From: a virus | Lineage: Duplodnaviria; Caudoviricetes | IMG/VR virus record: IMGVR_UViG_3300030090_002105 | Coordinates: 1-57,199 of that record | Reading direction: 5' to 3' (one strand) | Length of the DNA stretch: 57,199 bases | Part shown: in pieces, positions 13,731 through 40,326 of the stretch | How the letters are laid out: each line of letters starts with the position of its first letter | Numbering within the stretch: position 1 is the first letter of the stretch | Translations under genes and position numbers: made by a program | The notes under the pieces: generated by a model | What the model was told of the DNA's origin: nothing | The model's input: only the letters and a program-made list of their open reading frames with translations | Database searches by the model: none

Positions 13731-14291
13731 ATGGAAATCATCAAAGATGGCAAGACTCTCGCTACGGCGATCAAACGTGCTGTAAAAGCGATCATGACTA
13801 TGCAGGATCGTGTGCATGAGTTAGCAGTTAGCGCGATGTATCACTACTGGCTTCACGGCGATAGCACGTATCTGACCAATCTTGGGTCTGGTATCACCAA
13901 ATGCAATGGTGTAAACAAGCAGAAGTTTATCGGGTATGTTTCCGAGACTTGTGGCCTTAACTGGGACGTTAAGAACAATCGCTTCAAGAAGGCGAAGAAT
14001 TCTACGTTCACTAAGGATAGCGGTCAGGAGATTTTTCCGCTTCCAAGACTTGAGGCTCAGCGTTGGTATGAGTTTGAGTTAGACACTGAGATGCCTTCAT
14101 GGATGCTCAAGAGGGCGCTTAGGCAGTTGAATACTCAGATAGCCAGTCATAGCGATGAGGCTAAGAGTCAGATTGAGGATGCCTATGACGAGTTTGTAGC
14201 ACTAGAATCCACCATGAAAGAGGTGGGTCTTGGTGTAAGTCAGGAATCTTTCTCTGACGATACTCCAGAGTGGTTGCACCGAGCAGCCTAA
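13731..14291 (+). CDS. Early hypothetical protein
   Basis: GAGGA SD; 186 aa, helical, flanked by the two structured non-coding blocks. Confidence 0.75.
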   Translation: MEIIKDGKTLATAIKRAVKAIMTMQDRVHELAVSAMYHYWLHGDSTYLTNLGSGITKCNGVNKQKFIGYVSETCGLNWDVKNNRFKKAKNSTFTKDSGQEIFPLPRLEAQRWYEFELDTEMPSWMLKRALRQLNTQIASHSDEAKSQIEDAYDEFVALESTMKEVGLGVSQESFSDDTPEWLHRAA

Positions 14292-15010
14292 GTTGCGGGT
14301 TACCCTAGCGATAGGGTAATCCCTCAAGCAGTCAACTACAAGTGATACCTCTGAGACCTTCCGGAGGGCCAGTAGATAGGGCATCTAATGCCGGGTATCA
14401 CCAGTCCTGGGCATGACTGTGATGGGGTATACCATCTAAAAAGGCCCACTAATTTCGTCCTGAGTATGACTAGAGTTAAACTGCTCCGCCTAGGTACGGC
14501 GATAAACTGCCAACTACCCAGATGCTTGTAGAACCGTGGGTGAAGGGTCGATTTACCCGTCAGATGTGCAACGGTTCACCGAATTCCTAAGTCCTGAGTA
14601 TGACTTCATCCTGGTAAACTGCTCACTCAGTGCGTACCAGTAAACACTATGCCAGGGGTATTGGGTAGTAGATTCCCCCACTTCTGGTGACCGTCGAGCC
14701 TGTAATCGTCGGGGTTCTATAATCCGAGGGATAAAAACTGAGGTAGGCCGAATGGACACGCGCTAAACTGTCCTGAGTATGACAGGCATTTAGATCGGGG
14801 TTGCAGATGGTACATATCGCTGGCACTACGGTCGGCAACATAATGACAGGCCATCCCTAGTCGACGGCTCACGATAAATGCAAAACTGCTCACCTGGGGT
14901 ATTGCGGGGAGGGCTGGGTGAGTGAGTAACCTAGCCTACCTAGTAGGGTGGTATAGGGTCATGTCTTAACGGCTCTCAGAGAGGCTTACAGAGCGTCTCA
15001 GGGGCATAAA
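14292..15010 (+). ncRNA. Putative structured non-coding RNA II containing a pseudoknot repeat array
   Basis: No credible ORF; GNRA-capped hairpin at 14297-14322, multibranch stems and 5-6 copies of a covarying pseudoknot. Confidence 0.65.
14402..14891 (+). repeat. Array of mini-pseudoknot motifs GTC-CTGAGTAT-GAC...AAACTGCTC and variants
   Basis: Copies at 14402-14447, 14457-14486, 14488-14511, 14589-14624 and 14768-14891, plus a degenerate copy at 14747-14773. Confidence 0.8.
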
Positions 15011-15025
15011 ATCAGGAGGAACAGT

Positions 15026-15118
15026 ATGTTTGTAGATATTGTGTTGTTCTTGGCCTACTTTGTGGGCTTTGGTGCATTGGTCTTTGGTCAGTATAAACTT
15101 ATGAAACTGTGGAGATAA
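15026..15118 (+). CDS. Small membrane peptide (30 aa), not in ORF track
   Basis: AGGAGG SD; MFVDIVLFLAYFVGFGALVFGQYKLMKLWR. Confidence 0.55.
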   Translation: MFVDIVLFLAYFVGFGALVFGQYKLMKLWR

Positions 15119-30974: not shown

Positions 30975-31235
30975 TTATGTTGTTTCTTTAAAATCTTTTA
31001 TTAGCCCCCCTGTAACAAGGGGGGTTATTTTTTTTACACAACCATTCGGTATTACAGTAATACCAAACCACTCATTATCCTCATCCTTTGTTGTTGCTAT
31101 ACGCACCTCTTCATCATCATGATTAATAAGGTATCCGTATGACCAAAACACTGGCATCTTAGTTTCCTCTGACTTTTCCCACCCAGCCGTAGAAATAATA
31201 TCCAACCACTCTACTTCTACATACTTATAAGACAT
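30975..31235 (-). CDS. Small conserved phage protein, last gene of the late arm
   Basis: VEVEWLDI...GW...SYGYLI...IP.GCVKKI. Confidence 0.65.
   Translation of the reverse strand: MSYKYVEVEWLDIISTAGWEKSEETKMPVFWSYGYLINHDDEEVRIATTKDEDNEWFGITVIPNGCVKKITPLVTGGLIKDFKETT
31002..31035 (+). terminator. Intrinsic terminator of the early/replication arm
   Basis: TAGCCCCCCT-gtaaca-AGGGGGGTTA followed by T8, at the convergent junction. Confidence 0.75.
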
Positions 31236-34200
31236 CTTTTACCTTTGCATAAGCATTCTGCATCTCTTGTAATTCTGTCTGAATCCTAAGAGCGTTAGCT
31301 GTATATTCAGATATTAATCTTTGTCTTTGTTCTTCGCTTATGTTAGGGTCTTTTAAAAGCTTTTTAAGTCTTGAAAAAGTTTTATTAACTTCTAAACTTT
31401 TAAAGTAAATTTTTCTTTGAGCAGTTTCGTCACTGAGCTTAGAAAAGTTAAATCCAGCCCAAGATATTAACGACTCTGGTACACTATATTTAGGAAGTCC
31501 ATCAGCATCAACATTACCATCCATAAAATCAACAGCCATCATGGTTTTAATTAACTGCCCGCCATTGCCAATAACATCACCAGATTTATTTCTAGGCATA
31601 AACATAGGAGGCATCATATAACTAAGAAGGAATGCAGTCATATCTTGGTACTGCTGCATTGGAGGGTCAGCATCATTTGTAATTTCTTGTTTAGTAAATG
31701 GATCGACATTAGTTAACATACCTATCGGAGCCCCCATCCACCCTCCAAAAAATCCTGGAGCAGCAGCAGCCTCTCCAAACTCGCCTTGATAAAGATTCTT
31801 CATCATGTTTATATGAGCTCCCCACGGCAAGAAGTATCCCATATCAAACACCCTAATCCTACCATCTTGATCTTTCCAAGGAAGTATAAGTGACGTTGCA
31901 TTCTTCTCCATGTAATCAGCAACAAGTTTTTTCATCTCTGGAATGTCATCCTCTTCAAGCTCGGAATTATTTTCAAGCAGCATTTGAGCAACTACATATG
32001 GAATAGCGGCATACTTAGCAACAGCAATAGGATGATTCTTCATATTTCTAACCATCTGAGAGGCTGCTTTAAGATTAAAAGTAATAAATGGAGAACCCAA
32101 AGGCATTGTTCTTATAACCCTTACGGCTTGAGATACATTACTATAATCAAGAAGAGCTTCGTTAGCTAGTCTTGCCGCTTCAGATTCAGACTTTCCATGA
32201 TTCTCCATAAAGTCAATCATCTTAGCTACCTTAAACATAACCTCTGTCTTCTGGTAAGTCCTACCAAATACATCCACATAATCATTAAAGAAAACTTTTG
32301 ATCTTGCCCACATACCGCTCCAGCTATCCTCTTTAGCTTTTATCTTATTAAATTGAGCATCAATATTAACAAGCTCTTCAGAGGTAAATGTGGTGCTTTC
32401 AATTCCATACTTCCTAGCAAGCTGAGCATACTTTCCATCGCTTGCGATGTCTGCAATAGCTCTACTTATTAATCCAGGTATCTTTAAAAAGTTTGTGCCA
32501 GATACATCCATCAAAACTATATTTGATATAATATTTCTTGCCTGCGTAGGAATGTTCATTGGAACTTTTGTATATTTAAATACCTTCTGCGCCTTTGCAG
32601 AATAAGCCAATGCACCGTTAAGAAATTCATTATTAGTATAAAGCTGTTCTGATCCAATCACATCATTAATAATTTCTTTTCTAACATACAGCCCACGCAT
32701 AGCTCCATAACGAGGATTGTTAGGAACTTGTTTATACTTTTTAGAATCAGCTACAATTTTATTAGCAGTTACCTTATCAATTTCTTTTTGGATTTCATTA
32801 GCAATTTTTTCGTATGAAATAGCTTTTTCGTTATTGTTTAGTCCTCTCTCCTTTGCTGCATTCCTCATTATTGCACTAACTTTTTCATTCCAAAACCCAA
32901 CAGTTCCTTCTATATTATCGTATTTAACTATTTGATTTGGAAGAACCCAGCCATTATTACCTGTATCAGCAGCCAAAAAAGAAAGGTAATTGATAGTAGC
33001 TAAATCAGCTCCCGCCATAGATACGTATCTTCCCGCCAAGAAAGCAGGGTCTTCTATTCTACCATCAACAACATCCTTTAAAAAGTTTTCATGAGCAGAC
33101 CTAACCTTTGTGTAATTCATTTGGCTAGTTCCAATACCCATAGGTATCCTGTCACCTTTCTCAAGATATTCAAAGTATACGCGAGGAAGATACTTACCCC
33201 TCCACTGAGAATACTGGTCTTGTGTAATAAGGCCAGCAGCAACTAAATCAGAACCAAGTTTTTCAATTTGTTTCTTAGCCTCAACAACTGAATCCCTAAT
33301 AGATTTTTCTTCTGATAACCTTCCTGTCCCCTTGGTTCCGCTAAGAACGGTAGGAAGTTTAGCTACATTAACTTTTCTATTTGGGAGTTTATCTGGAGAT
33401 GCATCCCTTGTTTCAAAGTATTTTATTATCTCCTTCTTTTCTTGAGGAGTAGCTTGAAATATAACATCAAATATAACTCTGCCTTGATTATGCCATTTGC
33501 CTATCTCACCTTTGGTAAGCATTCTTTGAGTCTCTAATTCATCGTATCCTTCAAGAGTCATCAAAGGTTCAACAGCTCTTTGCAAAGTTTTTATTGCTTG
33601 TGTTATTTTTCCTTGCGCTTTTCTTGTGTTAAATCCCTGCTCCTTAGATGCATCATTAATCTTCTTCATTATTGGAAGATTTTTAGATGGACTTTCTGAT
33701 GCAATCCTAGCATCCTTTATAGCATTTACACCAGAAGTAAATGTAAATGAACTAGAAGCTTTAAACTGATCTTCAGACAAAAGAATGTAACTTAAATTTC
33801 CAGGGTCTTCAGATTTATTTACATATTGTATTGAATCATAACCTAAAGATTTTAACGCATCCCTATACTCTGAAGAAAACTTAACAAATCCGTCATAAAT
33901 TTCTCTTGAACCTGTAAATGGTTCAAGCTTTTGAGTCCATTCATTTGCTACAGAAAACAATACTTTATAATCTTTATCAGAGATATTGCCATCTCTCATC
34001 ATTTTGTTTAGTTCGTTTCTCCAAGCTTTCGGACCAGCCCAATGCCCAATGTCATCAACTCCTGTAAATGGATTAGTTACTTTAATGTATCCTTCTGTAA
34101 GCTTTTCTGATTTACCATCTACTATTTTAAGAGCTGCCTTCATTGTTCCAACATGAAGCCCCATCTCTGTAAACTCTAATATGGGTGCTGACCAGTTTTT

Positions 34201-37200
34201 TTCTGATCCATGATAAACTGTACCCTTAACCAATGAATCCTCAATGAATTCATTCCTTGCTTTTGTTTGAGCATCTGCAAGATATCCATCAGCTGCTGAT
34301 AAGTATTGCTTCGGCTCTATATATTTTTCGACAACGTCATCTATGGCTTTTTCTCTTGAGGCATCAAACATCTTCGCCCTTTGAATTAAAGTAGGCATTC
34401 TTTCAATGACTACACCAGCCATAGTATTAAAGATATCATCAACAGTTACGTCTGGTATACTATCAACATCATAGGCTTTAAATATTCTTATAAAGAATTT
34501 TTTAAATGCATCTTTAACCCTCTTCATAAGAGAGGCTCTTTGAAGGTCTAGCTCTTGGCCCTTATACTCAAGCATATGAGCAAGAACTTCTTCCCAAAAT
34601 ATATTATCTTCCCCAATAACTTCTATCGGATTCTTTCCATCCTTTGTTCTAAAACCATAAATAATTTTTCCATAGCCCATAAGGTCAGCAGATACAGGCT
34701 TAGCAAAATCTTTGTATATATCTTTGTAGTTGCTAGCTACTGCATCAAAAGCAGAAAGAACATACATATCTCCCTGTTTATGAAGTCTGCGAACCTCTTT
34801 TATAATTGCAGAAAATTCATTTGAAGACAGCATACTTCTGCCAACGTGGGCCCCAATCTCATGCCATATAAGCCCTCTTATCATATCAGGCGTAACATTA
34901 TCTTTAACTATATTTTCAGGAATAAAAGTAACTGAAGCATTATGAACAAAAGCAGCTGTATCTTTAAACTCTCGTTTTGATTTATTATGTTCTGCGGCAG
35001 CTTGTTTACGACTTAATATCTTAACAAATCCTGTGCTAAACATTTCATTTGTAGCACGAACACCAAATATTTTTTTAAGCTCTTGCCTTATAGATGATGC
35101 AACCTCATCTTTAGAGAACAAAACTTCACCAGATAGGAAAGGTTCCTGTTCTACTGAATCGGAGTCTATTCGTGACTCTTTATACTCTGTAGATATAATA
35201 CCAGTGTCATCATCAACTGTGTCTATATAGGGAGAGTTGTCTTCTACTGGTTCGACATCCTTAATTATGTAGGATTTAATTGCAGCTTCAATTTCTTTTC
35301 TTGTGCCTTTTTTGTTGTAAACAAATGATGGATCGGCTTTAAGTATATTATCAGCAATCGTTCGTAACTCGCTGATTTCAAACCCACCTTGGCTTTTAGT
35401 CTTTGATATATCTTTAAGGGCCGTGTTGGTGTCCAACATTTCTGTCCAGTATTCTGGAGTTAGTTTAACAGCCCTGTTTTCTGCTGTTCTCCTAGCAGTT
35501 TCTTCAGCCTCAGCTGCTGCTTCCGCCCTGATTTCCGCATCACCATCATCCCAGGTCAGCTCTATTAAAGCACTGGGATCGTCTGTTTCAGCAAACTCCT
35601 GCTTTGCTTCACTAGCTGCAATAATAGCATCAGCCTCTTCATCGCTAGAATATTCATCAATAGGTTCTGGATATGCTCTATTAATCTTATTACCAAATAT
35701 ACCATAGTCTGATGCTACAATTCTTTCTGCTTCTTCCTGTACTTCTCCAGCAACATCTACTGGCTCAACCAATTCTGTAGGAGCAGCCTCTTCTTTGGGC
35801 GCTATGTACTTAGCATAAAGAGCATCATACAAATCCTCTTCAGTAGTATTTTCATCATATGGGATATCGTTATTCTCAGCTATCTTTTGTTTATTTTTAT
35901 CTAGAGATAGTCTAAATGAATCACCCTTTTTCCCCGTGCCTGCCAACAAAGCTCTTGTCCCTCTTCCCAAACCCTTAAGGAATTCTCCAGTATAAGTCTT
36001 TCCTTCCGGCCTTGGAACAAAGGCATTACGAGCTTTCTTTTTCTCCCTATTAGCTACAAATTCAGACATCTTATCAGCATAAAGAACAGCATCTTGCTTG
36101 TTAGGTTCTCTCCTTATAACAGTACCTTCAGACTCAACTATAAAACTGTCAGGATTTTCTGGGTCTTCATAAACTATAGCCTCAACCCCTTGAGGATTGG
36201 GAACGCTTGACTCATACTTATCAAGCTCAATACGGGTAGTTGTTGCTTTTGGAATAACAGTTTCAAAAGTATCTTCATCAGAAACAACAGCATCATCTAC
36301 CAGTTCAGCCTGTGTCATGTCTGGGGTAACAGTAGTAGTATCAACTACTGGTGTATCAACACCCTGATCAACATCTTCTACAGTAGGACCAGTGTCATCT
36401 GTTCCTGCTTGGAATTCAGCATCAGCTTCTTGATCTGCTGTTTCCCTAGCTACAGTTGCTTGCTCTCTGGCTATCATATCAGCAATCTGTTGATCCTGAG
36501 TTTGATCTTCGTCAACATCTGTTACTGCTATGTCAGGTGGGGTGGTAGCTTTATCTCTTGGTTTATTAGCACTGCCAGACTGATCTTTATTATAATTGAC
36601 CCTTCTAAGAGGAATGATTACTTCTTCTGATCCAGTTCTAGCATCAGAAATAATAGAATCTTTACCTTTCGATTTATCAAAATCCTTAACCCTATCTCCC
36701 TTTTTGAAAAATACATCTACCTCTATTTCTCCGGTAGTTCCTAACTCTTTAGCAACCAAAGCTCTACCACGCCCCTCATGCCCAACTACCTTTAATCCAT
36801 TATCTGTAATTTCTACATCTATAAATGGAGGGGCAAAAGTTCCACCCTCTTCTGCCAAGTTACGCAAAAAATCTAAACTATCTGAACCTTCAGGCTTAGC
36901 ATCTCTAGATGGATTTAAACTAATAAACTCATCAAGCGTCATTGTAACCACAATGCCTTTAGATTCTTCATAAACTGGATAATTTCTATCAGTAGAATCT
37001 CTTTGATTTGGTACTAATCCTGCTGGTTCTTCTTTATTTTTTTCTACATCCCTTGTAAATACTACCTCACCCTGTGGGGTGGTAGCGGGTGCAGCTTCCG
37101 CGCCTTTAGCGGCGTCTGGAACTACTGTTTCTTGTGCTGCTGCAAATGATTCCTCGTCATAAGGTAATCCCTGCTCTTGCAACTCAACAGGACTAAACCC

Positions 37201-40200
37201 TAGCTCACCCATGTCTTCCATGTATGCATCGAAGTCAGGGTATATTGTTAAGTCTAGTGTACCCGGTATTTTTCCAGTTTCTGTTGCGTCTGGTGCAGTC
37301 TCAGTGGGAGTATCTGGTACGGGAGGGGTAGCATCTGCTTGTGTAGGAGTCTTGTTACCGTATGGATTCATGGTGGTTCCAGGAACTGTAACCGGATCAA
37401 CACCTGCCTCAAGAGCTTCAATATTTTTCTTAGCTTGGTCTCTTTTTCTTATCCATCCAGGCAAAGGATTACGTGGGTTTGAATCATCATATATTCTTCT
37501 CGATTCTAAATCAATTCCCCTCTCCCTTAGACCTCTCTCCATCTGATTTATTCTTAGCTCCATCTCCTCTAGCAAAAGCTTTTCATGCTCAAGATTTTTT
37601 CCCTCAATCAATTCTGATAGTTCTGGAGAGTCAGTCTCTAAAGCATCATCAATTGCCTCTCGCTTTTTTTCAAGCTCTTTGATACGTTTATTCTCTTCAA
37701 GAATAATAGGGTCTGGGTCTTTGATTACTACATTTGAAATATCAGGAACTTTTGCTTGTGTAGTGGGTGCTTCTTCAGGGGCGGGAGGAGTAGCGTCTGC
37801 TTGGTTAGGATCAGGCGCTGCTTCAGGTGGAGCGTCAGGGGTAGTGGCAGCTTTATCAGGAGCAGCATCCTTTTGAGTAGTCTGATCCCCTTCAGGTTTA
37901 AGGGTAGGTAGGCCTCTTTCTTTAAGAATAGCATTAGCCTTTTCAAGTGGGACCGCTTTCCTATAAGCGTTGGCAGCAGCTGTGCCTCCTATGCGAGAAT
38001 TTTTTATTCGTGCTATTTCACTCTGCCTTCTAGAAGCAAATTCTTGAGCGCTTATTTGCCCATAGAAAAATGCATCATATGTTTCGCCAGCCATCTCTAT
38101 AGCTTGTTCTTTAAGCTCAGCAGCCTGTTCTTTTTCAAGCTTCTTACGCTCATCAATCCTTCTTTGAGCCTCAAAGTTTAATCTAGCTTCTCTATCCTGT
38201 CTTTGTTTTGCTGCCTCCCTCTGAGCCTGTAATCTAGCTGCTCGTGAAGAGTATACCCTTCTCCTTGTTGCCCCACCTTCCCTGAGAACCCTTGTCCTAG
38301 CTTCTTCACCAGCTATAGAGGCTTGACCATGATCACCACCAGTCTCTAAAACAACTTCATTGTATGCTTCGTTATAAGCTGTTGATGCCTCATCTTCTAA
38401 CTCTCTACTTGCCTTAGCAAACTTAGCTTCTTCAATATCTGCGGCAGTAATAAGAACATCACCATCAACCAAAACATTCTCGCCATCACCAATAACTGTA
38501 TTGATAACAGGTCTGTTCATTACTTGAGGGCCTTTATCTCTAGCCTTTATTTCTTCTCTTAGCGCAGCAAAACTTCTACGAGGCCTACCCTGTGGGCCAG
38601 CACCGGTTTGATCTGGCGCTGAATCTAATACAACAGAGGGGTCTGCAAAAACTTCTGGTTTAATTGTATCCTGAATAACGGAAGGGTCTTGAGATGGAGA
38701 TCCAAATATTGGAACATCAATATCAGCAGGACCTCCAGTTACAGGAGTAATCACCCTTCCTGCAGAATCTCTTTGTCCTTCGCCTGATTGAGTTCCTCGG
38801 TCTGCTCTATCTTTTATTATAGGCAAGGAGCCTGATTGAGTACCGGAACCAGGAAAGCCTGGTTCTTCTCTAGGGTTAAGAACAGGGCCTCCACCTCGCT
38901 GTACATTAGGATCAACTGTTGTTGGAAGAGTTGGTTCTACTCTTCCTTGTGTTCCTATCGGCGCAACTGGAGTGTCAGGCATTACATCAGCCTGTGTTGG
39001 GCCTGACGGTTCTTGAGCTAGTCGAGCCTCAATCTGTTCTTGAGTTGCAGATGGACCCCTTTGTGTTCCTACTGGAAGAACTTCATCTGGTTGCTGTTGT
39101 CGCTCAGCTTCTGCTGTGCGTGGGTCTTCAGCCATTATCTGGGCTAAAGTTTTTTCTTCTTCTGGTACGGCTTCTGCTTCTGCTTCAGCTTCTTGTTCTT
39201 TTATAGGAACAATTTTATTTATAGCTGCTTCAGAATCAGCTCCCCATATCTTAGCTTTCTTTTTATTTGCTTCTACTCTTAGCTCAGATATTTCTTTTCT
39301 AATATCATTAGATCTTTTTTGAATTTTAAAATCTCTTGGTTGCTCAGCAAGACTTGTTCTTTCTGCCTCAAGTTCTGCAATTTTTAATTCAAGTTCAGAA
39401 TCAACTTGAGCAACAGCCTCTTCCTTTCGGCCAATAATTTTACGAGCAGAGCTTCTGCCGAATCCTGATGTTGATGCGCCAGCGCCAAATCCTAAGAATC
39501 CACCAGCCCAAGCAGCTTCTTGAAATTGAGCAATTTGTTCTTCTGAAAAATCAAACGGGTCTTTACCTTCTTGAGCATTAATAGTAGCAGCCTGAAGAAC
39601 TTCTTGCATACCTTCAGTTCCGGCTTCAGTGAAACTGCTCTGAAGACCAACTTTTACCGCTCTACTCCACCACTTATTTTTTGCTAAGTTCTTTGCTGCT
39701 GCTGCTTTAACTTTTTCCCTTATTGATCTATTTACAAATGCTCCACCAATCTTTCCTGGAACAGCTGCGTCAAGCCCTGCCATAAGAAGAGAGGCTCCAA
39801 GAACAAGACCTTTGTCTACATTTTCCTTGCCTACTGCGTCAACAGATTCTGCAAATGTATCTCCTGCATTCAAAGCAAATGATGCAATACCAGCTCCAGA
39901 TAAAGCTGCTAGAGTTCCGCCACCGGTTAAGGCTGTTGCTCCAGCAGCAGCAAGCGCTGATGTAATCAAAGTTGCGCCATCAATAACCAACAAATCTAGA
40001 AAATATTTAGATAAATCATTCCCTTTCTCACGAGCTTTTTCAAATGTTAATCTATCATACTGCTCTAACTGTGCTTTGTTCTTAGCTCTTACAGCTCCCC
40101 AATAAGCTGAAAGATTATCAAAGCCTGCCCCTTCAGATAAAAACTCTAAAGAAGCTCCAAGAAGGTACTGCATTTGATCAGCCGAAGCACCAAATCTACC

Positions 40201-40326
40201 AGGCTCTTCTTCTACTGGTTGATCTACACTTTGATTAGATATAAACGCCGAACCAAATGGTCCTGACCGAGCTCTACCAATAAGGCCTTGTGTATTATTA
40301 TTTACAACATCTGAATTTGATGCCAT
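31225..40326 (-). CDS. Giant internal virion/polyvalent protein (ParB-like, zincin-like and ADP-ribosyltransferase-like domains)
   Basis: 3033 aa at the end of the internal-protein cluster; GHEGRGR, HEIGAH...EEVLA and VYHGS...NPF...LGYDSI...DQFK motifs. Confidence 0.75.
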   Translation of the reverse strand: MASNSDVVNNNTQGLIGRARSGPFGSAFISNQSVDQPVEEEPGRFGASADQMQYLLGASLEFLSEGAGFDNLSAYWGAVRAKNKAQLEQYDRLTFEKAREKGNDLSKYFLDLLVIDGATLITSALAAAGATALTGGGTLAALSGAGIASFALNAGDTFAESVDAVGKENVDKGLVLGASLLMAGLDAAVPGKIGGAFVNRSIREKVKAAAAKNLAKNKWWSRAVKVGLQSSFTEAGTEGMQEVLQAATINAQEGKDPFDFSEEQIAQFQEAAWAGGFLGFGAGASTSGFGRSSARKIIGRKEEAVAQVDSELELKIAELEAERTSLAEQPRDFKIQKRSNDIRKEISELRVEANKKKAKIWGADSEAAINKIVPIKEQEAEAEAEAVPEEEKTLAQIMAEDPRTAEAERQQQPDEVLPVGTQRGPSATQEQIEARLAQEPSGPTQADVMPDTPVAPIGTQGRVEPTLPTTVDPNVQRGGGPVLNPREEPGFPGSGTQSGSLPIIKDRADRGTQSGEGQRDSAGRVITPVTGGPADIDVPIFGSPSQDPSVIQDTIKPEVFADPSVVLDSAPDQTGAGPQGRPRRSFAALREEIKARDKGPQVMNRPVINTVIGDGENVLVDGDVLITAADIEEAKFAKASRELEDEASTAYNEAYNEVVLETGGDHGQASIAGEEARTRVLREGGATRRRVYSSRAARLQAQREAAKQRQDREARLNFEAQRRIDERKKLEKEQAAELKEQAIEMAGETYDAFFYGQISAQEFASRRQSEIARIKNSRIGGTAAANAYRKAVPLEKANAILKERGLPTLKPEGDQTTQKDAAPDKAATTPDAPPEAAPDPNQADATPPAPEEAPTTQAKVPDISNVVIKDPDPIILEENKRIKELEKKREAIDDALETDSPELSELIEGKNLEHEKLLLEEMELRINQMERGLRERGIDLESRRIYDDSNPRNPLPGWIRKRDQAKKNIEALEAGVDPVTVPGTTMNPYGNKTPTQADATPPVPDTPTETAPDATETGKIPGTLDLTIYPDFDAYMEDMGELGFSPVELQEQGLPYDEESFAAAQETVVPDAAKGAEAAPATTPQGEVVFTRDVEKNKEEPAGLVPNQRDSTDRNYPVYEESKGIVVTMTLDEFISLNPSRDAKPEGSDSLDFLRNLAEEGGTFAPPFIDVEITDNGLKVVGHEGRGRALVAKELGTTGEIEVDVFFKKGDRVKDFDKSKGKDSIISDARTGSEEVIIPLRRVNYNKDQSGSANKPRDKATTPPDIAVTDVDEDQTQDQQIADMIAREQATVARETADQEADAEFQAGTDDTGPTVEDVDQGVDTPVVDTTTVTPDMTQAELVDDAVVSDEDTFETVIPKATTTRIELDKYESSVPNPQGVEAIVYEDPENPDSFIVESEGTVIRREPNKQDAVLYADKMSEFVANREKKKARNAFVPRPEGKTYTGEFLKGLGRGTRALLAGTGKKGDSFRLSLDKNKQKIAENNDIPYDENTTEEDLYDALYAKYIAPKEEAAPTELVEPVDVAGEVQEEAERIVASDYGIFGNKINRAYPEPIDEYSSDEEADAIIAASEAKQEFAETDDPSALIELTWDDGDAEIRAEAAAEAEETARRTAENRAVKLTPEYWTEMLDTNTALKDISKTKSQGGFEISELRTIADNILKADPSFVYNKKGTRKEIEAAIKSYIIKDVEPVEDNSPYIDTVDDDTGIISTEYKESRIDSDSVEQEPFLSGEVLFSKDEVASSIRQELKKIFGVRATNEMFSTGFVKILSRKQAAAEHNKSKREFKDTAAFVHNASVTFIPENIVKDNVTPDMIRGLIWHEIGAHVGRSMLSSNEFSAIIKEVRRLHKQGDMYVLSAFDAVASNYKDIYKDFAKPVSADLMGYGKIIYGFRTKDGKNPIEVIGEDNIFWEEVLAHMLEYKGQELDLQRASLMKRVKDAFKKFFIRIFKAYDVDSIPDVTVDDIFNTMAGVVIERMPTLIQRAKMFDASREKAIDDVVEKYIEPKQYLSAADGYLADAQTKARNEFIEDSLVKGTVYHGSEKNWSAPILEFTEMGLHVGTMKAALKIVDGKSEKLTEGYIKVTNPFTGVDDIGHWAGPKAWRNELNKMMRDGNISDKDYKVLFSVANEWTQKLEPFTGSREIYDGFVKFSSEYRDALKSLGYDSIQYVNKSEDPGNLSYILLSEDQFKASSSFTFTSGVNAIKDARIASESPSKNLPIMKKINDASKEQGFNTRKAQGKITQAIKTLQRAVEPLMTLEGYDELETQRMLTKGEIGKWHNQGRVIFDVIFQATPQEKKEIIKYFETRDASPDKLPNRKVNVAKLPTVLSGTKGTGRLSEEKSIRDSVVEAKKQIEKLGSDLVAAGLITQDQYSQWRGKYLPRVYFEYLEKGDRIPMGIGTSQMNYTKVRSAHENFLKDVVDGRIEDPAFLAGRYVSMAGADLATINYLSFLAADTGNNGWVLPNQIVKYDNIEGTVGFWNEKVSAIMRNAAKERGLNNNEKAISYEKIANEIQKEIDKVTANKIVADSKKYKQVPNNPRYGAMRGLYVRKEIINDVIGSEQLYTNNEFLNGALAYSAKAQKVFKYTKVPMNIPTQARNIISNIVLMDVSGTNFLKIPGLISRAIADIASDGKYAQLARKYGIESTTFTSEELVNIDAQFNKIKAKEDSWSGMWARSKVFFNDYVDVFGRTYQKTEVMFKVAKMIDFMENHGKSESEAARLANEALLDYSNVSQAVRVIRTMPLGSPFITFNLKAASQMVRNMKNHPIAVAKYAAIPYVVAQMLLENNSELEEDDIPEMKKLVADYMEKNATSLILPWKDQDGRIRVFDMGYFLPWGAHINMMKNLYQGEFGEAAAAPGFFGGWMGAPIGMLTNVDPFTKQEITNDADPPMQQYQDMTAFLLSYMMPPMFMPRNKSGDVIGNGGQLIKTMMAVDFMDGNVDADGLPKYSVPESLISWAGFNFSKLSDETAQRKIYFKSLEVNKTFSRLKKLLKDPNISEEQRQRLISEYTANALRIQTELQEMQNAYAKVKDVL

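What the first reader, a model, noticed from the sequence alone, without database searches (positions are those of the whole stretch)
14402..14891. Array of 5-6 covarying mini-pseudoknot RNAs in the phage's earliest transcribed region
Seen: a repeated unit of stem 1, a 7-8-nt loop, a variable linker, AAA(C), and a segment complementary to the loop. The copies are CAGTC-CTGGGCAT-GACTG...AAAAAGGCCC (14402-14447), GTC-CTGAGTAT-GAC...TAAACTGCTC (14457-14486), GCC-TAGGTAC-GGC-GA-TAAACTGCC (14488-14511), AAGTC-CTGAGTAT-GACTT...TAAACTGCTC (14589-14624), degenerate GCCG-AATGGACA-CGCGC-TAAACTGTCC (14747-14773) and CTGTC-CTGAGTAT-GACAG...AAAACTGCTC (14768-14891). Loop and downstream partner change together: GAGTA/TGCTC, GGGC/GCCC, GGTA/TGCC, GGACA/TGTCC. 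Stem-1 extensions stay paired. Long linkers are themselves closed helices (GATGG/CCATC; GCATTTA/TAAATGC around a ~95-nt insert). This is what structure-level rather than sequence-level selection looks like, and the G-U pairs point to the + strand transcript. Established: type III toxin-antitoxin RNAs (ToxI, CptI) are tandem H-type pseudoknots, and phage phiTE uses pseudo-ToxI repeats to escape ToxIN. Inference: an early-expressed RNA decoy array (anti-defence or protein sponge), nuclease-blocking elements, or processing signals. I cannot assign it to a named family, and it is the best candidate here for an undescribed system.
Basis: partly seen in the sequence, partly recalled or inferred. Interest (0 to 1): 0.88.

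Follow-up and report, generated by a model that had tools for sequence, protein, structure and literature searches.

The report
Coremin-like RNA pseudoknot array in phage
Four tandem copies of a tiny knotted RNA fold sit in a gene-free stretch of this marine phage; the same fold lies between genes of very many other phages, is in no RNA catalogue, and closely resembles the element plant RNA viruses use to stop an RNA-degrading enzyme.

Summary
The repeats are real. Four copies (14402-14450, 14455-14486, 14587-14624, 14768-14891, + strand) of a ~30-nt H-type pseudoknot lie in an ORF-free gap (14292-15025). A fifth (14487-14511) is plausible. The "degenerate" sixth (14747-14773) is not supported.

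The motif is not private to this phage. A covariance model found 133 copies in 76 viral loci, with compensatory changes in both helices. It also occurs in named phages of Staphylococcus, Lactobacillus, Anoxybacillus, Mycobacterium, Paracoccus, Nostoc, Synechococcus and Vibrio, in phage D6E, and in bacterial genomes, especially Saccharibacteria. It usually lies between genes, at least 6 nt after a stop codon, before ORFs, tRNAs or another structured RNA. Rfam 15 has no match.

Its sequence (GUC-CUGAGUAU-GAC-GUUAAAC-URCUC) is close to the 20-nt coremin motif of plant RNA viruses. That motif stalls Xrn1 and ribosomes. The second hairpin that coremin needs is not enriched here.

Best reading (inferred, untested): a protein-independent barrier to enzymes moving 5'->3' along RNA, insulating or stabilising downstream RNA. 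The ToxI-like decoy idea is not supported. This scan noted the same motif earlier on other DNA (e1-5967231); I took the coremin lead from there and checked it.

The parts
14292..15025 (+). ORF-free region (734 nt) holding the array. It lies between the ORF at 13731-14291 (PHROG 1448, unknown function) and the first SD-preceded small ORF at 15026.
   Evidence: Relatives L132-L134 keep the region, with insertions and replacements.
14402..14450 (+). Copy 1. P1 is CAGUC/GACUG, the loop is CUGGGCAU, and the linker carries a closed helix GAUGG/CCAUC followed by an A-run. P2 is GGGC/GCCC, a compensatory variant.
   Evidence: CM 15.4 bits, E 0.016. The same GGGCA/..GCCC variant occurs in L066 and L023. 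The copy is absent from relatives, and one contig skips 14332-14454.
14455..14486 (+). Copy 2. P1 is GUC/GAC, the loop CUGAGUAU, the linker ..GUUAAAC, and P2 GAGUA/UGCUC.
   Evidence: CM 36.6 bits. In relatives UGCUC is UACUC, so the U.G pair becomes U-A.
14487..14511 (+). Possible divergent copy 3, or a hairpin (CGCC/GGCG) directly after copy 2. It has a 7-nt loop UAGGUAC, then AUAAAC, then UGCC, which can pair with GGUA.
   Evidence: Read from the sequence. Not found by the CM at E<=10. Identical in three relatives.
14587..14624 (+). Copy 4. P1 is AAGUC/GACUU, the loop CUGAGUAU, the linker ..GGUAAAC, and P2 GAGUA/UGCUC.
   Evidence: CM 46.0 bits, E 2.3e-11. Relatives keep P1 and P2 but have a different linker. 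Loose ends of RNA-library contigs show P1 and loop variants that stay paired (table 7).
14747..14773 (+). Not supported as a pseudoknot.
   Evidence: No CM match. In relatives AAA is broken (TATAC) and the loop and partner are no longer complementary.
14768..14891 (+). Copy 6. The hairpin CUGUC-CUGAGUAU-GACAG lies at 14768-14785. An ~89-nt linker insert follows, closed by GCAUUUA/UAAAUGC. AAAAC-UGCUC lies at 14881-14891.
   Evidence: CM 20.4 bits (5' half) and 13.6 bits (3' half). The insert folds as a closed multi-stem. The equivalent in relatives scores 30.3 bits as one match of 99 nt.

Best explanation
The array is four tandem copies, perhaps five, of a widespread and uncatalogued RNA motif used by phages and mobile elements. 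The motif is a compact H-type pseudoknot with these parts:
- P1: 3-5 bp, usually GUC/GAC, with an invariant C-G closing pair.
- L1: CU.
- P2: 4-5 bp between loop bases GAGUA and downstream URCUC.
- L2: U.
- L3: an A-rich linker, ..UAAAC, that tolerates insertions on its 5' side.

That much is shown here. What follows is inferred.

The fold closely resembles the coremin/xrRNA_C element of plant RNA viruses, so I propose that it works without a protein partner as a directional mechanical barrier. Enzymes that travel 5'->3' along the RNA would stall at it. Candidates are the RNase J exonuclease, scanning RNase E, post-termination ribosomes and possibly Rho. The RNA downstream (the next cistron, a tRNA, a structured RNA) would then be insulated from events upstream and would outlive the upstream part.

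In this phage the tandem copies lie in the long leader ahead of the small-ORF block that starts at 15026. They would give several successive barriers, like the tandem xrRNAs of flaviviruses, and might leave stable small RNAs.
For: STRUCTURE (shown).
- 133 matches in 76 viral loci. In every locus with several matches, all lie on one strand.
- P2 was not part of the search model, yet it is paired in 98.1% of cells. Three of its 5 pairs show double-sided changes (G-C/A-U; A-U/G-C; G-C/A-U), and the fourth is U.G 72, C-G 35, U-A 18.
- P1's fourth pair is C-G 47, A-U 42, U-A 14, G-C 8.
- None of 500 shuffles reach the covariation score. Slid controls pair in only 26-41% of cells.
- Linker length varies from 2 to 19 nt in 75 copies, and structured inserts occur here.

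HOST INDEPENDENCE.
- CM-confirmed copies occur in named phages of Staphylococcus, Lactobacillus, Anoxybacillus, Moorella, Mycobacterium, Paracoccus, Nostoc, Synechococcus and Vibrio, and in the deep-sea thermophilic phage D6E.
- An exact-pattern scan found the motif in bacterial genomes of many phyla.
- The first ORFs downstream of bacterial copies share no family: of 79 scanned, no Pfam family was matched by more than 2.

POSITION.
- An upstream ORF's stop codon lies within 15 nt in 68 of 120 copies. The minimum spacing is sharp at 6 nt (22 cases; three apparent overlaps are the only smaller values).
- The next 9 nt downstream are G-poor, and the next 26 nt are less structured than controls.
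- Seven copies lie 1-9 nt upstream of a tRNA gene (six, one). One lies 1 nt upstream of a DUF2800 RNA.
- In B166, D6E, A403 and phiEF-1.1, and in contigs L062 and L096, the single copy found lies just upstream of the scaffold gene, which in the four named phages is followed by the major capsid gene.

RESEMBLANCE.
- The coremin motif is GUCCGAAGACGUUAAACUAC (PMC10520033, Methods).
- Coremin has a 3-5 bp hp1 with a required C-G closing pair, a Y..AD loop and a conserved spacer (PMC6546385 passages).
- 'Watson-Crick-type' coremin forms S2 as GAG-CUC between loop and spacer (PMC10321173, section 14).
- 22 of 133 phage copies carry the identical 10-mer GUUAAACU(A/G)C.
- Coremin stalls Xrn1, blocks scanning ribosomes and stimulates frameshifting (abstracts).
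- Candidate coremin motifs include loops of 5-8 nt, tandem repeats and intergenic positions (PMC10520033, section 11).
- A flaviviral xrRNA blocks bacterial RNase J1 in vitro (PMC5760640 passages).
Against: - No experiment bears on the phage motif.
- The second hairpin (hp2) directly after the spacer is required for Xrn1 resistance of coremin. It is not enriched after the phage motif: 132 of 252 copies have a hairpin of at least 3 bp there, against 146 and 155 in positional controls and 142 in shuffles.
- Without hp2, Watson-Crick coremin variants keep only their frameshift-stimulating (ribosome-stalling) activity. Exonuclease resistance may therefore not apply here.
- Ordinary frameshifter pseudoknots do not stall Xrn1 (PMC10321173 abstract).
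- The motif also occurs in a Vibrio phage. From my own knowledge Vibrio has no RNase J, so another enzyme would have to be the target there.
- The invariant nucleotides cluster at the helical junction, which would also suit a ligand or protein pocket.
- Some copies are followed by a terminator (L015, L011), and in phiEF-1.1 a terminator precedes the copy. The barrier idea does not explain either arrangement.
- Transcription of the window's array is not shown.
Confidence: 0.42

Rival explanations
1. The pseudoknot is a binding pocket: either a riboswitch-like sensor of a ubiquitous small molecule, or the docking site of a universally conserved host machine such as the ribosome or RNA polymerase. 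Binding would tune expression of whatever lies downstream.
For: - The topology is that of the preQ1-I riboswitch (hairpin, A-rich tail, tail pairing with the loop). This comparison is recalled, not tested.
- The invariant unpaired bases (C10, U11, U17, AAA) and the invariant pairs C9-G18 and A16-U46 all lie at the P1/P2 junction.
- In a group of Saccharibacteria loci, a downstream segment can pair either with the loop/P1 strand of the knot or with a third segment, like an expression platform.
- A Firmicutes-phage variant is followed by a conserved U-tract plus UUAUGCA.
Against: - No gene-family association: of 79 downstream ORFs, no family was matched by more than 2. Phage downstream genes range from helicase to scaffold.
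- Copies precede tRNAs and another structured RNA.
- In most copies no terminator or SD-sequestering partner is evident.
- L2 varies among U, A and C.
- There are up to 8 copies in one 15-kb locus (L075, L066).
- No Rfam riboswitch match.
Confidence: 0.2
2. The knot mimics the acceptor arm of a tRNA (a TYMV-like pseudoknotted acceptor). It would be a processing site for RNase P or another tRNA-processing enzyme that cuts long phage transcripts into units.
For: - RNase P is universal, which would explain the host range.
- The invariant U11 followed by G12 resembles the U(-1)/G(+1) of pre-tRNAs (recalled).
- P2 stacked on P1 gives 9-10 bp.
- The base after P2 is A in 70% of copies and the next is C in 47%, faintly like ACCA.
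- Several copies abut tRNA genes.
Against: - The ACCA-like tail is weak: C 30% and A 40% at the next two positions.
- The outer pair of P2, where cleavage would occur, is the more variable one, while the junction is invariant.
- There is no T-loop equivalent.
- No cleavage data exist.
Confidence: 0.1
3. One reading: the tandem copies are made as a free RNA that acts in trans as a decoy or sponge, for example a pseudo-antitoxin against type III toxin-antitoxin defences or a protein sponge.
For: - Four to five copies lie in 490 nt without a credible ORF, unlike the one-per-gene layout elsewhere.
- Copy number varies between relatives.
- A few copies elsewhere are followed directly by a terminator, like small RNA genes (L015, L011).
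Against: - The motif is the same cis element found between genes in phages of unrelated hosts. A decoy of a host-specific antitoxin should not be.
- Spacing and linkers are irregular.
- None of 10 neighbouring ORFs matches a ToxN-like or other defence model in PADLOC, apart from one weak unrelated hit at E 0.0026.
- No Rfam ToxI match.
Confidence: 0.08
4. The element works as DNA: a promoter for a phage-encoded polymerase, a recombination or cassette-shuffling site, or a single-stranded DNA structure.
For: - It precedes genes of every kind, including tRNAs.
- In L075 and L066 it fills almost the whole gap between consecutive ORFs.
- In phiEF-1.1 it follows a terminator by 18 nt.
- This phage has a 3033-aa ORF of unknown family that could be a virion polymerase.
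- Methods that find RNA motifs also find ssDNA motifs (PMC5737381 passages).
Against: - Covariation of two interleaved helices is not expected of a duplex protein-binding site.
- U.G pairs (72 of 128 cells at one pair) make only the sense strand foldable.
- The linker varies from 2 to ~95 nt.
- The motif occurs in Staphylococcus temperate phages and in bacterial chromosomes. From my own knowledge, such Staphylococcus siphoviruses use only the host polymerase.
- No -10/-35 signal lies at a fixed distance upstream.
Confidence: 0.07
5. The knot is a very small self-cleaving ribozyme, placed between genes as hammerhead, twister and pistol ribozymes are in phages.
For: - The many-copies-between-genes layout resembles that of phage ribozymes (recalled).
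- The first half resembles the P1-AAA-pseudoknot part of pistol (recalled).
- The junction nucleotides are strongly conserved.
Against: - No Rfam ribozyme match at E<=10.
- Only ~30 nt are conserved, and nothing beyond the knot.
- There are no P2/P3 equivalents of pistol.
Confidence: 0.05

Closest known systems
Coremin motif / xrRNA_C of beny-, cucumo- and many other eukaryotic RNA viruses, especially the 'Watson-Crick-type' coremin variants (Dilweg et al. 2019, 2023a, 2023b)
   Same: - hp1 of 3-5 bp with the same GUC/GAC stem and a C-G closing pair.
- The loop starts with a pyrimidine and ends in A followed by a non-C base.
- The spacer GUUAAACU(A/G)C is identical in 22 of 133 phage copies.
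[quoted passage not shown]
- Tandem repeats occur, as do intergenic and post-stop-codon positions.
- Coremin-like candidates with loops of up to 8 nt are reported.
   Different: - The phage motif is found in dsDNA phages and bacteria, where there is no Xrn1.
- The loop is 8 nt, with U rather than G second.
- P2 is 4-5 bp rather than 3.
- The linker accepts long insertions.
- The downstream hairpin hp2, which is needed for Xrn1 resistance, is not enriched.
- No functional data exist for the phage motif.
- The papers I read mention neither bacteriophage nor prokaryotes (0 occurrences in PMC10520033).
Luteovirus-type frameshifting pseudoknots (BWYV class) and other compact triplex H-type pseudoknots
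   Same: Recalled, not tested: a short S1, a 2-nt L1 beginning with C, one junction nucleotide, and an A-rich L3 lying in the S1 minor groove. These folds resist unwinding mechanically.
   Different: No slippery heptamer lies upstream. The motif follows stop codons and also precedes tRNAs.
preQ1-I riboswitch
   Same: The order of elements is the same: hairpin, A-rich tail, tail pairing with the loop. The size is similar (~34 nt). This comparison is recalled.
   Different: No Rfam match. L2 is only 1 nt. There is no link to queuosine genes, and there are many copies per genome.
ToxI/CptI antitoxin RNAs of type III toxin-antitoxin systems and the pseudo-ToxI of phage phiTE
   Same: Tandem pseudoknotted RNA units carried in a phage.
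   Different: The units here are irregularly spaced and are not identical repeats. No toxin gene lies nearby. The motif is a dispersed cis element in phages of unrelated hosts.

Membership tests
coremin / xrRNA_C | 5' hairpin (hp1) of 3-5 bp in which structure matters more than sequence | tested here: met
   All 125-132 scorable cells of each of the three inner P1 pairs are standard pairs, with GUC/GAC, GAC/GUC, CUC/GAG, UUC/GAA, AUC/GAU and GCC/GGC variants. The fourth pair is C-G 47, A-U 42, U-A 14, G-C 8.
coremin / xrRNA_C | Loop-closing pair with a 5' pyrimidine and 3' purine (C-G; G-C abolishes function) | tested here: met
   C-G in 132 of 132 scorable rows. The requirement is taken from PMC6546385.
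coremin / xrRNA_C | Loop consensus YGAD (4 nt) or YGNNAD (6 nt) | tested here: inconclusive
   The phage loop has 8 nt. All 16 loop types seen start with C. Most end in A-U or A-A; three types end in A-C and one ends in U-G. The second base is U (or C), and G comes third. Loops of 5-8 nt are mentioned for coremin candidates, but no consensus for them is given in the text I read.
coremin / xrRNA_C | Highly conserved 10-nt spacer (GUUAAACUAC) | tested here: met
   AAA is invariant in the 75-row seed alignment. In the 133 matches, 22 carry GUUAAACU(A/G)C, 67 carry UAAACURC and 108 carry AAAC(U/G)RC. The phage linker tolerates insertions 5' of UAAAC.
coremin / xrRNA_C (Watson-Crick type) | [quoted passage not shown] GAG-CUC) | tested here: met
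   98.1% of cells paired, with double-sided changes in 3 of 5 pairs. P2 was not in the search model.
coremin / xrRNA_C | Second hairpin (hp2) directly after the spacer, required for Xrn1 resistance | tested here: not met
   132 of 252 copies have a hairpin of at least 3 bp starting 0-3 nt after P2, against 146 and 155 in positional controls and 142 in shuffles. The mean MFE of the next 26 nt is -1.52, against -2.03 and -2.64 in controls. In the window only copy 2 is followed by such a hairpin (14487-14501).
coremin / xrRNA_C | Stalls a 5'->3' exoribonuclease | not testable with these tools
   Needs an RNase J1/Xrn1 assay.
Type III TA antitoxin RNA (ToxI-like) or phage pseudo-ToxI | Tandem direct repeats of constant unit length | tested here: not met
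   Start-to-start spacings are 53, 134 and 179 nt.
Type III TA antitoxin RNA (ToxI-like) or phage pseudo-ToxI | Adjacent ToxN/AbiQ-type endoribonuclease gene, or likeness to a host antitoxin | tested here: not met
   PADLOC on 10 neighbouring ORFs gave no such match. No Rfam hit. Likeness to an unknown host's antitoxin cannot be tested.
preQ1-I riboswitch | Match to the family model and association with queuosine-pathway genes | tested here: not met
   No Rfam match at E<=10. Downstream genes are unrelated to queuosine.
Known self-cleaving ribozymes (hammerhead, twister, pistol, hatchet, HDV-like) | Match to a family covariance model | tested here: not met
   No match at E<=10 in three scans.

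The most novel reading that the evidence does not exclude
Tailed phages and mobile elements of many bacterial phyla carry a counterpart of the eukaryotic RNA-virus xrRNA: a 30-nt knot, related to or convergent with the plant-virus coremin motif, that halts bacterial 5'->3' RNA-degrading or RNA-scanning enzymes. Phages would use it to set the boundaries and lifetimes of segments of their polycistronic transcripts. This phage's tandem array would produce a ladder of stable leader-derived RNAs. If so, programmed nuclease resistance would be a shared strategy of viruses of bacteria and of eukaryotes.
Probability: 0.35. Interest if true: 0.88.

Novelty: new variant of a known kind. Interest (0 to 1): 0.77.

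Why it matters
If the reading holds, one of the smallest known functional RNA folds is shared between plant, fungal and insect RNA viruses and dsDNA phages. That would give bacterial RNA biology its first natural nuclease- or scanning-resistant RNA.

It would also explain a recurrent and so far unannotated feature of phage genomes, including the spot just before the scaffold and capsid genes of Staphylococcus, Lactobacillus and Anoxybacillus phages and of phage D6E.

A 30-nt, host-independent part for stabilising or insulating cistrons would be a practical tool.

Even if the mechanism turns out differently, the motif is a well-supported, very widespread structured RNA that is absent from Rfam 15.

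Tried and rejected
- Rfam scans at E<=10 of the window region, a canonical copy and the Staphylococcus phage copy found nothing relevant.
- blastn of the whole region against phage records found no match.
- ARAGORN found no tRNA in the window.
- Promoter idea: no -10-like signal lies at a fixed distance upstream. The small peaks at 3, 4 and 8 nt are probably the TAA stop codons (my inference).
- Literature searches for the motif's letters found only AFLP adapters. Searches for phage pseudoknot motifs found nothing relevant. Searches combining coremin or xrRNA with bacteriophage or RNase J found no phage report.
- Model phages Syn9, 80alpha, Patience, SPP1 and S-PM2: no match with the tool's loose first look.
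- Class-level prevalence, meant as a test of a link with RNase J: besides the seed genome, 0 of 150 Gammaproteobacteria, 1 of 150 Clostridia and 16 of 150 Saccharimonadia genomes matched. Only 44 candidates per genome were scored, so this cannot test the link.
- Frameshift or readthrough signal: no slippery heptamer lies before the copies, and the downstream ATGs of the four exact-14-mer copies in L066 are 22-23 nt after P2, not a multiple of 3.
- IRES-like start directly after the knot: rejected for the same reason.
- RNA-library contigs (X17-X20) cover only parts of the region and cannot show ends or transcription. Parts without cover mean nothing.
- Folding of the inter-copy segments gave z-scores of +0.31, -0.12 and -0.64, so they are not unusually stable.
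Full report
WHAT IS IN THE WINDOW

The window is a complete 57,199-bp record of an uncultured marine virus. It has an SU10-type portal, a terminase and a major head protein on the - strand. Replication genes lie on the + strand from about 12 to 30.8 kb.

The finding lies in a 734-nt stretch with no credible ORF (14292-15025). On one side is a 186-aa ORF of unknown function. On the other is a block of small ORFs whose first member has a strong ribosome-binding site.

Repeat finding, pattern counts against shuffles, and a covariance model all pick out the same four places, all on the + strand:
- 14402-14450
- 14455-14486
- 14587-14624
- 14768-14891, which is split by an ~89-nt structured insert

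. Window copies 1, 2 and 4 were among the model's 75 seed sequences, so their scores are partly by construction. The other 72 seeds came from other viral contigs.

It may be a divergent copy, or a hairpin that follows copy 2.

In the relatives it loses both the AAA and the complementarity, so I reject it.

THE MOTIF IS WIDESPREAD

In 75 distinct occurrences the 14-mer is followed, after 2-19 nt, by AAAC-URCUC. In 39 occurrences it is not.

I built a model from 75 sequences (A1, R1). It found 133 matches in 76 loci totalling 711,583 bases. Where a locus has several matches, all lie on one strand. L075 and L066 each have 8 copies within 15 kb, and there the motif fills almost the whole gap between consecutive ORFs.

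THE FOLD

The structure is an H-type pseudoknot:
- P1: 3 conserved pairs plus 1-2 covarying ones.
- L1: CU.
- P2: five loop bases pairing with five bases after an A-rich linker.
- L2: U.
- L3: ..UAAAC.

P2 was not part of the search model. It is nevertheless paired in 98.1% of cells. Variants that keep pairing include GAGUA/UGCUC or UACUC, GAGCA/UGCUC, GGGCA/UGCCC, GGACA/UGUCC, AAGCA/UGCUU and AGGUA/UGCCU.

None of 500 shuffles reach the covariation score. Sliding the partner by 1-3 columns drops pairing to 26-41%.

One pair is U.G in 72 rows, C-G in 35 and U-A in 18. Only the sense strand can therefore fold. This points to RNA, or less likely to non-template single-stranded DNA.

The window's copy 1 (GGGCA with GCCC) is one of these compensated variants. 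Its relatives change UGCUC to UACUC in copy 2. Loose ends of RNA-library contigs show further paired variants of copy 4's hairpin.

WHERE THE MOTIF OCCURS

BLAST with a canonical copy, followed by the model, confirms the motif in these named phages:
- Staphylococcus B166 (87 Staphylococcus records matched in all)
- Lactobacillus phiEF-1.1
- Anoxybacillus A403
- deep-sea thermophilic phage D6E
- Moorella MTATph1
- Mycobacterium Labelle
- Paracoccus ParMal1
- Nostoc NMeng1
- Synechococcus S-SM2 and S-EIVl
- Vibrio D456

.

An exact-pattern scan of one genome per bacterial species hit at least 119 stretches in many phyla. About a third were Saccharibacteria, at several conserved loci. In a class-level sample, 17 of 151 Saccharimonadia genomes matched, against 1 of 151 Gammaproteobacteria and 2 of 151 Clostridia; each count includes the seed genome. 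The tool scored only 44 candidates per genome.

POSITION RELATIVE TO GENES

- The motif is not tied to any gene family.
- It follows an ORF's stop codon within 15 nt in 68 of 120 copies. The minimum spacing is sharp at 6 nt.
- It is followed by a G-poor, unstructured stretch.
- What comes next varies: an ORF start within 40 nt in 50 of 116 copies, a tRNA gene 1-9 nt away in seven cases, a DUF2800 RNA 1 nt away, or occasionally a terminator.
- In B166, D6E, A403 and phiEF-1.1, and in contigs L062 and L096, the single copy found lies just upstream of the scaffold gene, which in the four named phages is followed by the major capsid gene.
- No promoter-like signal lies at a fixed distance upstream.

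WHAT IT IS NOT

- Rfam 15 has nothing for it at E<=10 in three scans.
- It is not a gene-specific riboswitch.
- It is not a ToxI-like repeat. The spacing is irregular, none of the 10 neighbouring ORFs scanned matches a toxin model, and phages of unrelated hosts carry the same element.
- A duplex-DNA promoter would not show two interleaved covarying helices with sense-strand wobble pairs and a linker of 2 to ~95 nt.

WHAT IT RESEMBLES

I checked this against the papers.

- The coremin motif is GUCCGAAGACGUUAAACUAC (PMC10520033, Methods).
- It needs a 3-5 bp hp1 with a C-G closing pair, a YGAD (or YGNNAD) loop, a conserved 10-nt spacer and a second hairpin, hp2 (PMC6546385 passages; PMC10520033 abstract).
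- 'Watson-Crick-type' variants pair loop bases with the end of the spacer, as GAG with CUC (PMC10321173, section 14).

The phage motif is GUC-CUGAGUAU-GAC-GUUAAAC-U(G/A)CUC. Compared with coremin:
- It has the same hp1 stem and the same closing pair (132 of 132 rows).
- It has the same spacer; the 10-mer is identical in 22 of 133 copies.
- It has the same loop-spacer pairing, extended to 5 bp.

Coremin stalls Xrn1, blocks scanning ribosomes and stimulates -1 frameshifting. Candidates with loops of up to 8 nt, tandem repeats and intergenic positions are reported.

One defining feature fails. hp2 is not enriched after the phage motif: 132 of 252 copies, against 146 and 155 in positional controls and 142 in shuffles. 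Without hp2, Watson-Crick coremin variants keep only ribosome-stalling activity.

A flaviviral xrRNA does block bacterial RNase J1 in vitro (PMC5760640). I found no paper linking coremin or xrRNAs with phages.

MECHANISM I COMMIT TO

Shown: a conserved, sense-strand, compact pseudoknot that is host-independent and gene-independent. It is placed so that a terminating ribosome need not unwind its conserved core.

Inferred: it is a protein-independent barrier to machines moving 5'->3' along the RNA. Candidates are RNase J, scanning RNase E, ribosomes and perhaps Rho. It would insulate and stabilise whatever lies downstream.

In this phage, four or five barriers in tandem would guard the leader of the small-ORF block and could leave stable leader fragments.

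I put this at about 0.42. The rivals are:
- a ligand or host-factor pocket, 0.2
- an RNase P-type processing site, 0.1
- a trans-acting decoy, 0.08
- a DNA-level signal, 0.07
- a ribozyme, 0.05

VERDICT

The structural inference is right. The decoy interpretation is not supported.

The element is a new, prokaryotic-virus variant of a known kind of RNA, the coremin-like pseudoknot. It is uncatalogued and very widespread, and its function is untested.

Noticed in passing
window 31225-40326 (-): A 3033-aa ORF, the largest in the genome, matches no Pfam or PHROG family. Its size and position among virion genes suggest an ejected giant protein or a virion polymerase. This is untested.
   Followed up: partly
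L200, L155, L207 and other Saccharibacteria loci (genome contigs): The motif lies at several conserved chromosomal loci of Saccharibacteria. 17 of 151 sampled Saccharimonadia genomes matched, against 1 of 151 Gammaproteobacteria and 2 of 151 Clostridia. In the L207 group, a downstream segment can pair either with the knot's loop/P1 strand or with a third segment, like a switch.
   Followed up: partly
L209 1-163 (-), Merdibacter genome: The pseudoknot lies 1 nt upstream of a DUF2800 RNA (Rfam RF02960, 120.9 bits) on the same strand. L194 has a similar sequence after its copy.
   Followed up: no
L121 (B166), L128 (A403), L130 (phiEF-1.1), L125 (D6E), L096, L062: In the scaffold-gene-associated copies of Firmicutes phages, the knot is followed by a U-rich tract and a conserved UUAUGCA. 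In D6E this lies about 35 nt further on. In phiEF-1.1 an intrinsic terminator ends 18 nt before the knot.
   Followed up: partly
window 14512-14588: This 77-nt segment between copies 3 and 4 differs from three relatives at only one base. It holds a 22-codon frame (ATG 14522 to TAA 14588) that ends at copy 4's hairpin. The frame's first 11 nt resemble the start of the ORF at 15026 (repeat D8). It has no ribosome-binding site.
   Followed up: no
window 14652-14663 and 14893-14904: A 12-nt repeat, CC(A/T)GGGGTATTG, follows copies 4 and 6 at different distances (repeat D7). The segment 14892-15025 folds better than shuffles (z -2.32).
   Followed up: no
L132-L134 versus window 14340-14450 and 14589: In the relatives, the copy-1 region is replaced by a different sequence that begins with an ATG, and about 330 nt are inserted before copy 4. 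One contig from another run skips 14332-14454. The copy number of the array is therefore variable.
   Followed up: partly
window 14297-14322: An 11-bp hairpin (GGGTTACCCTA/TAGGGTAATCC) with no T-run lies directly after the stop of the ORF at 13731-14291. It is conserved in relatives.
   Followed up: no
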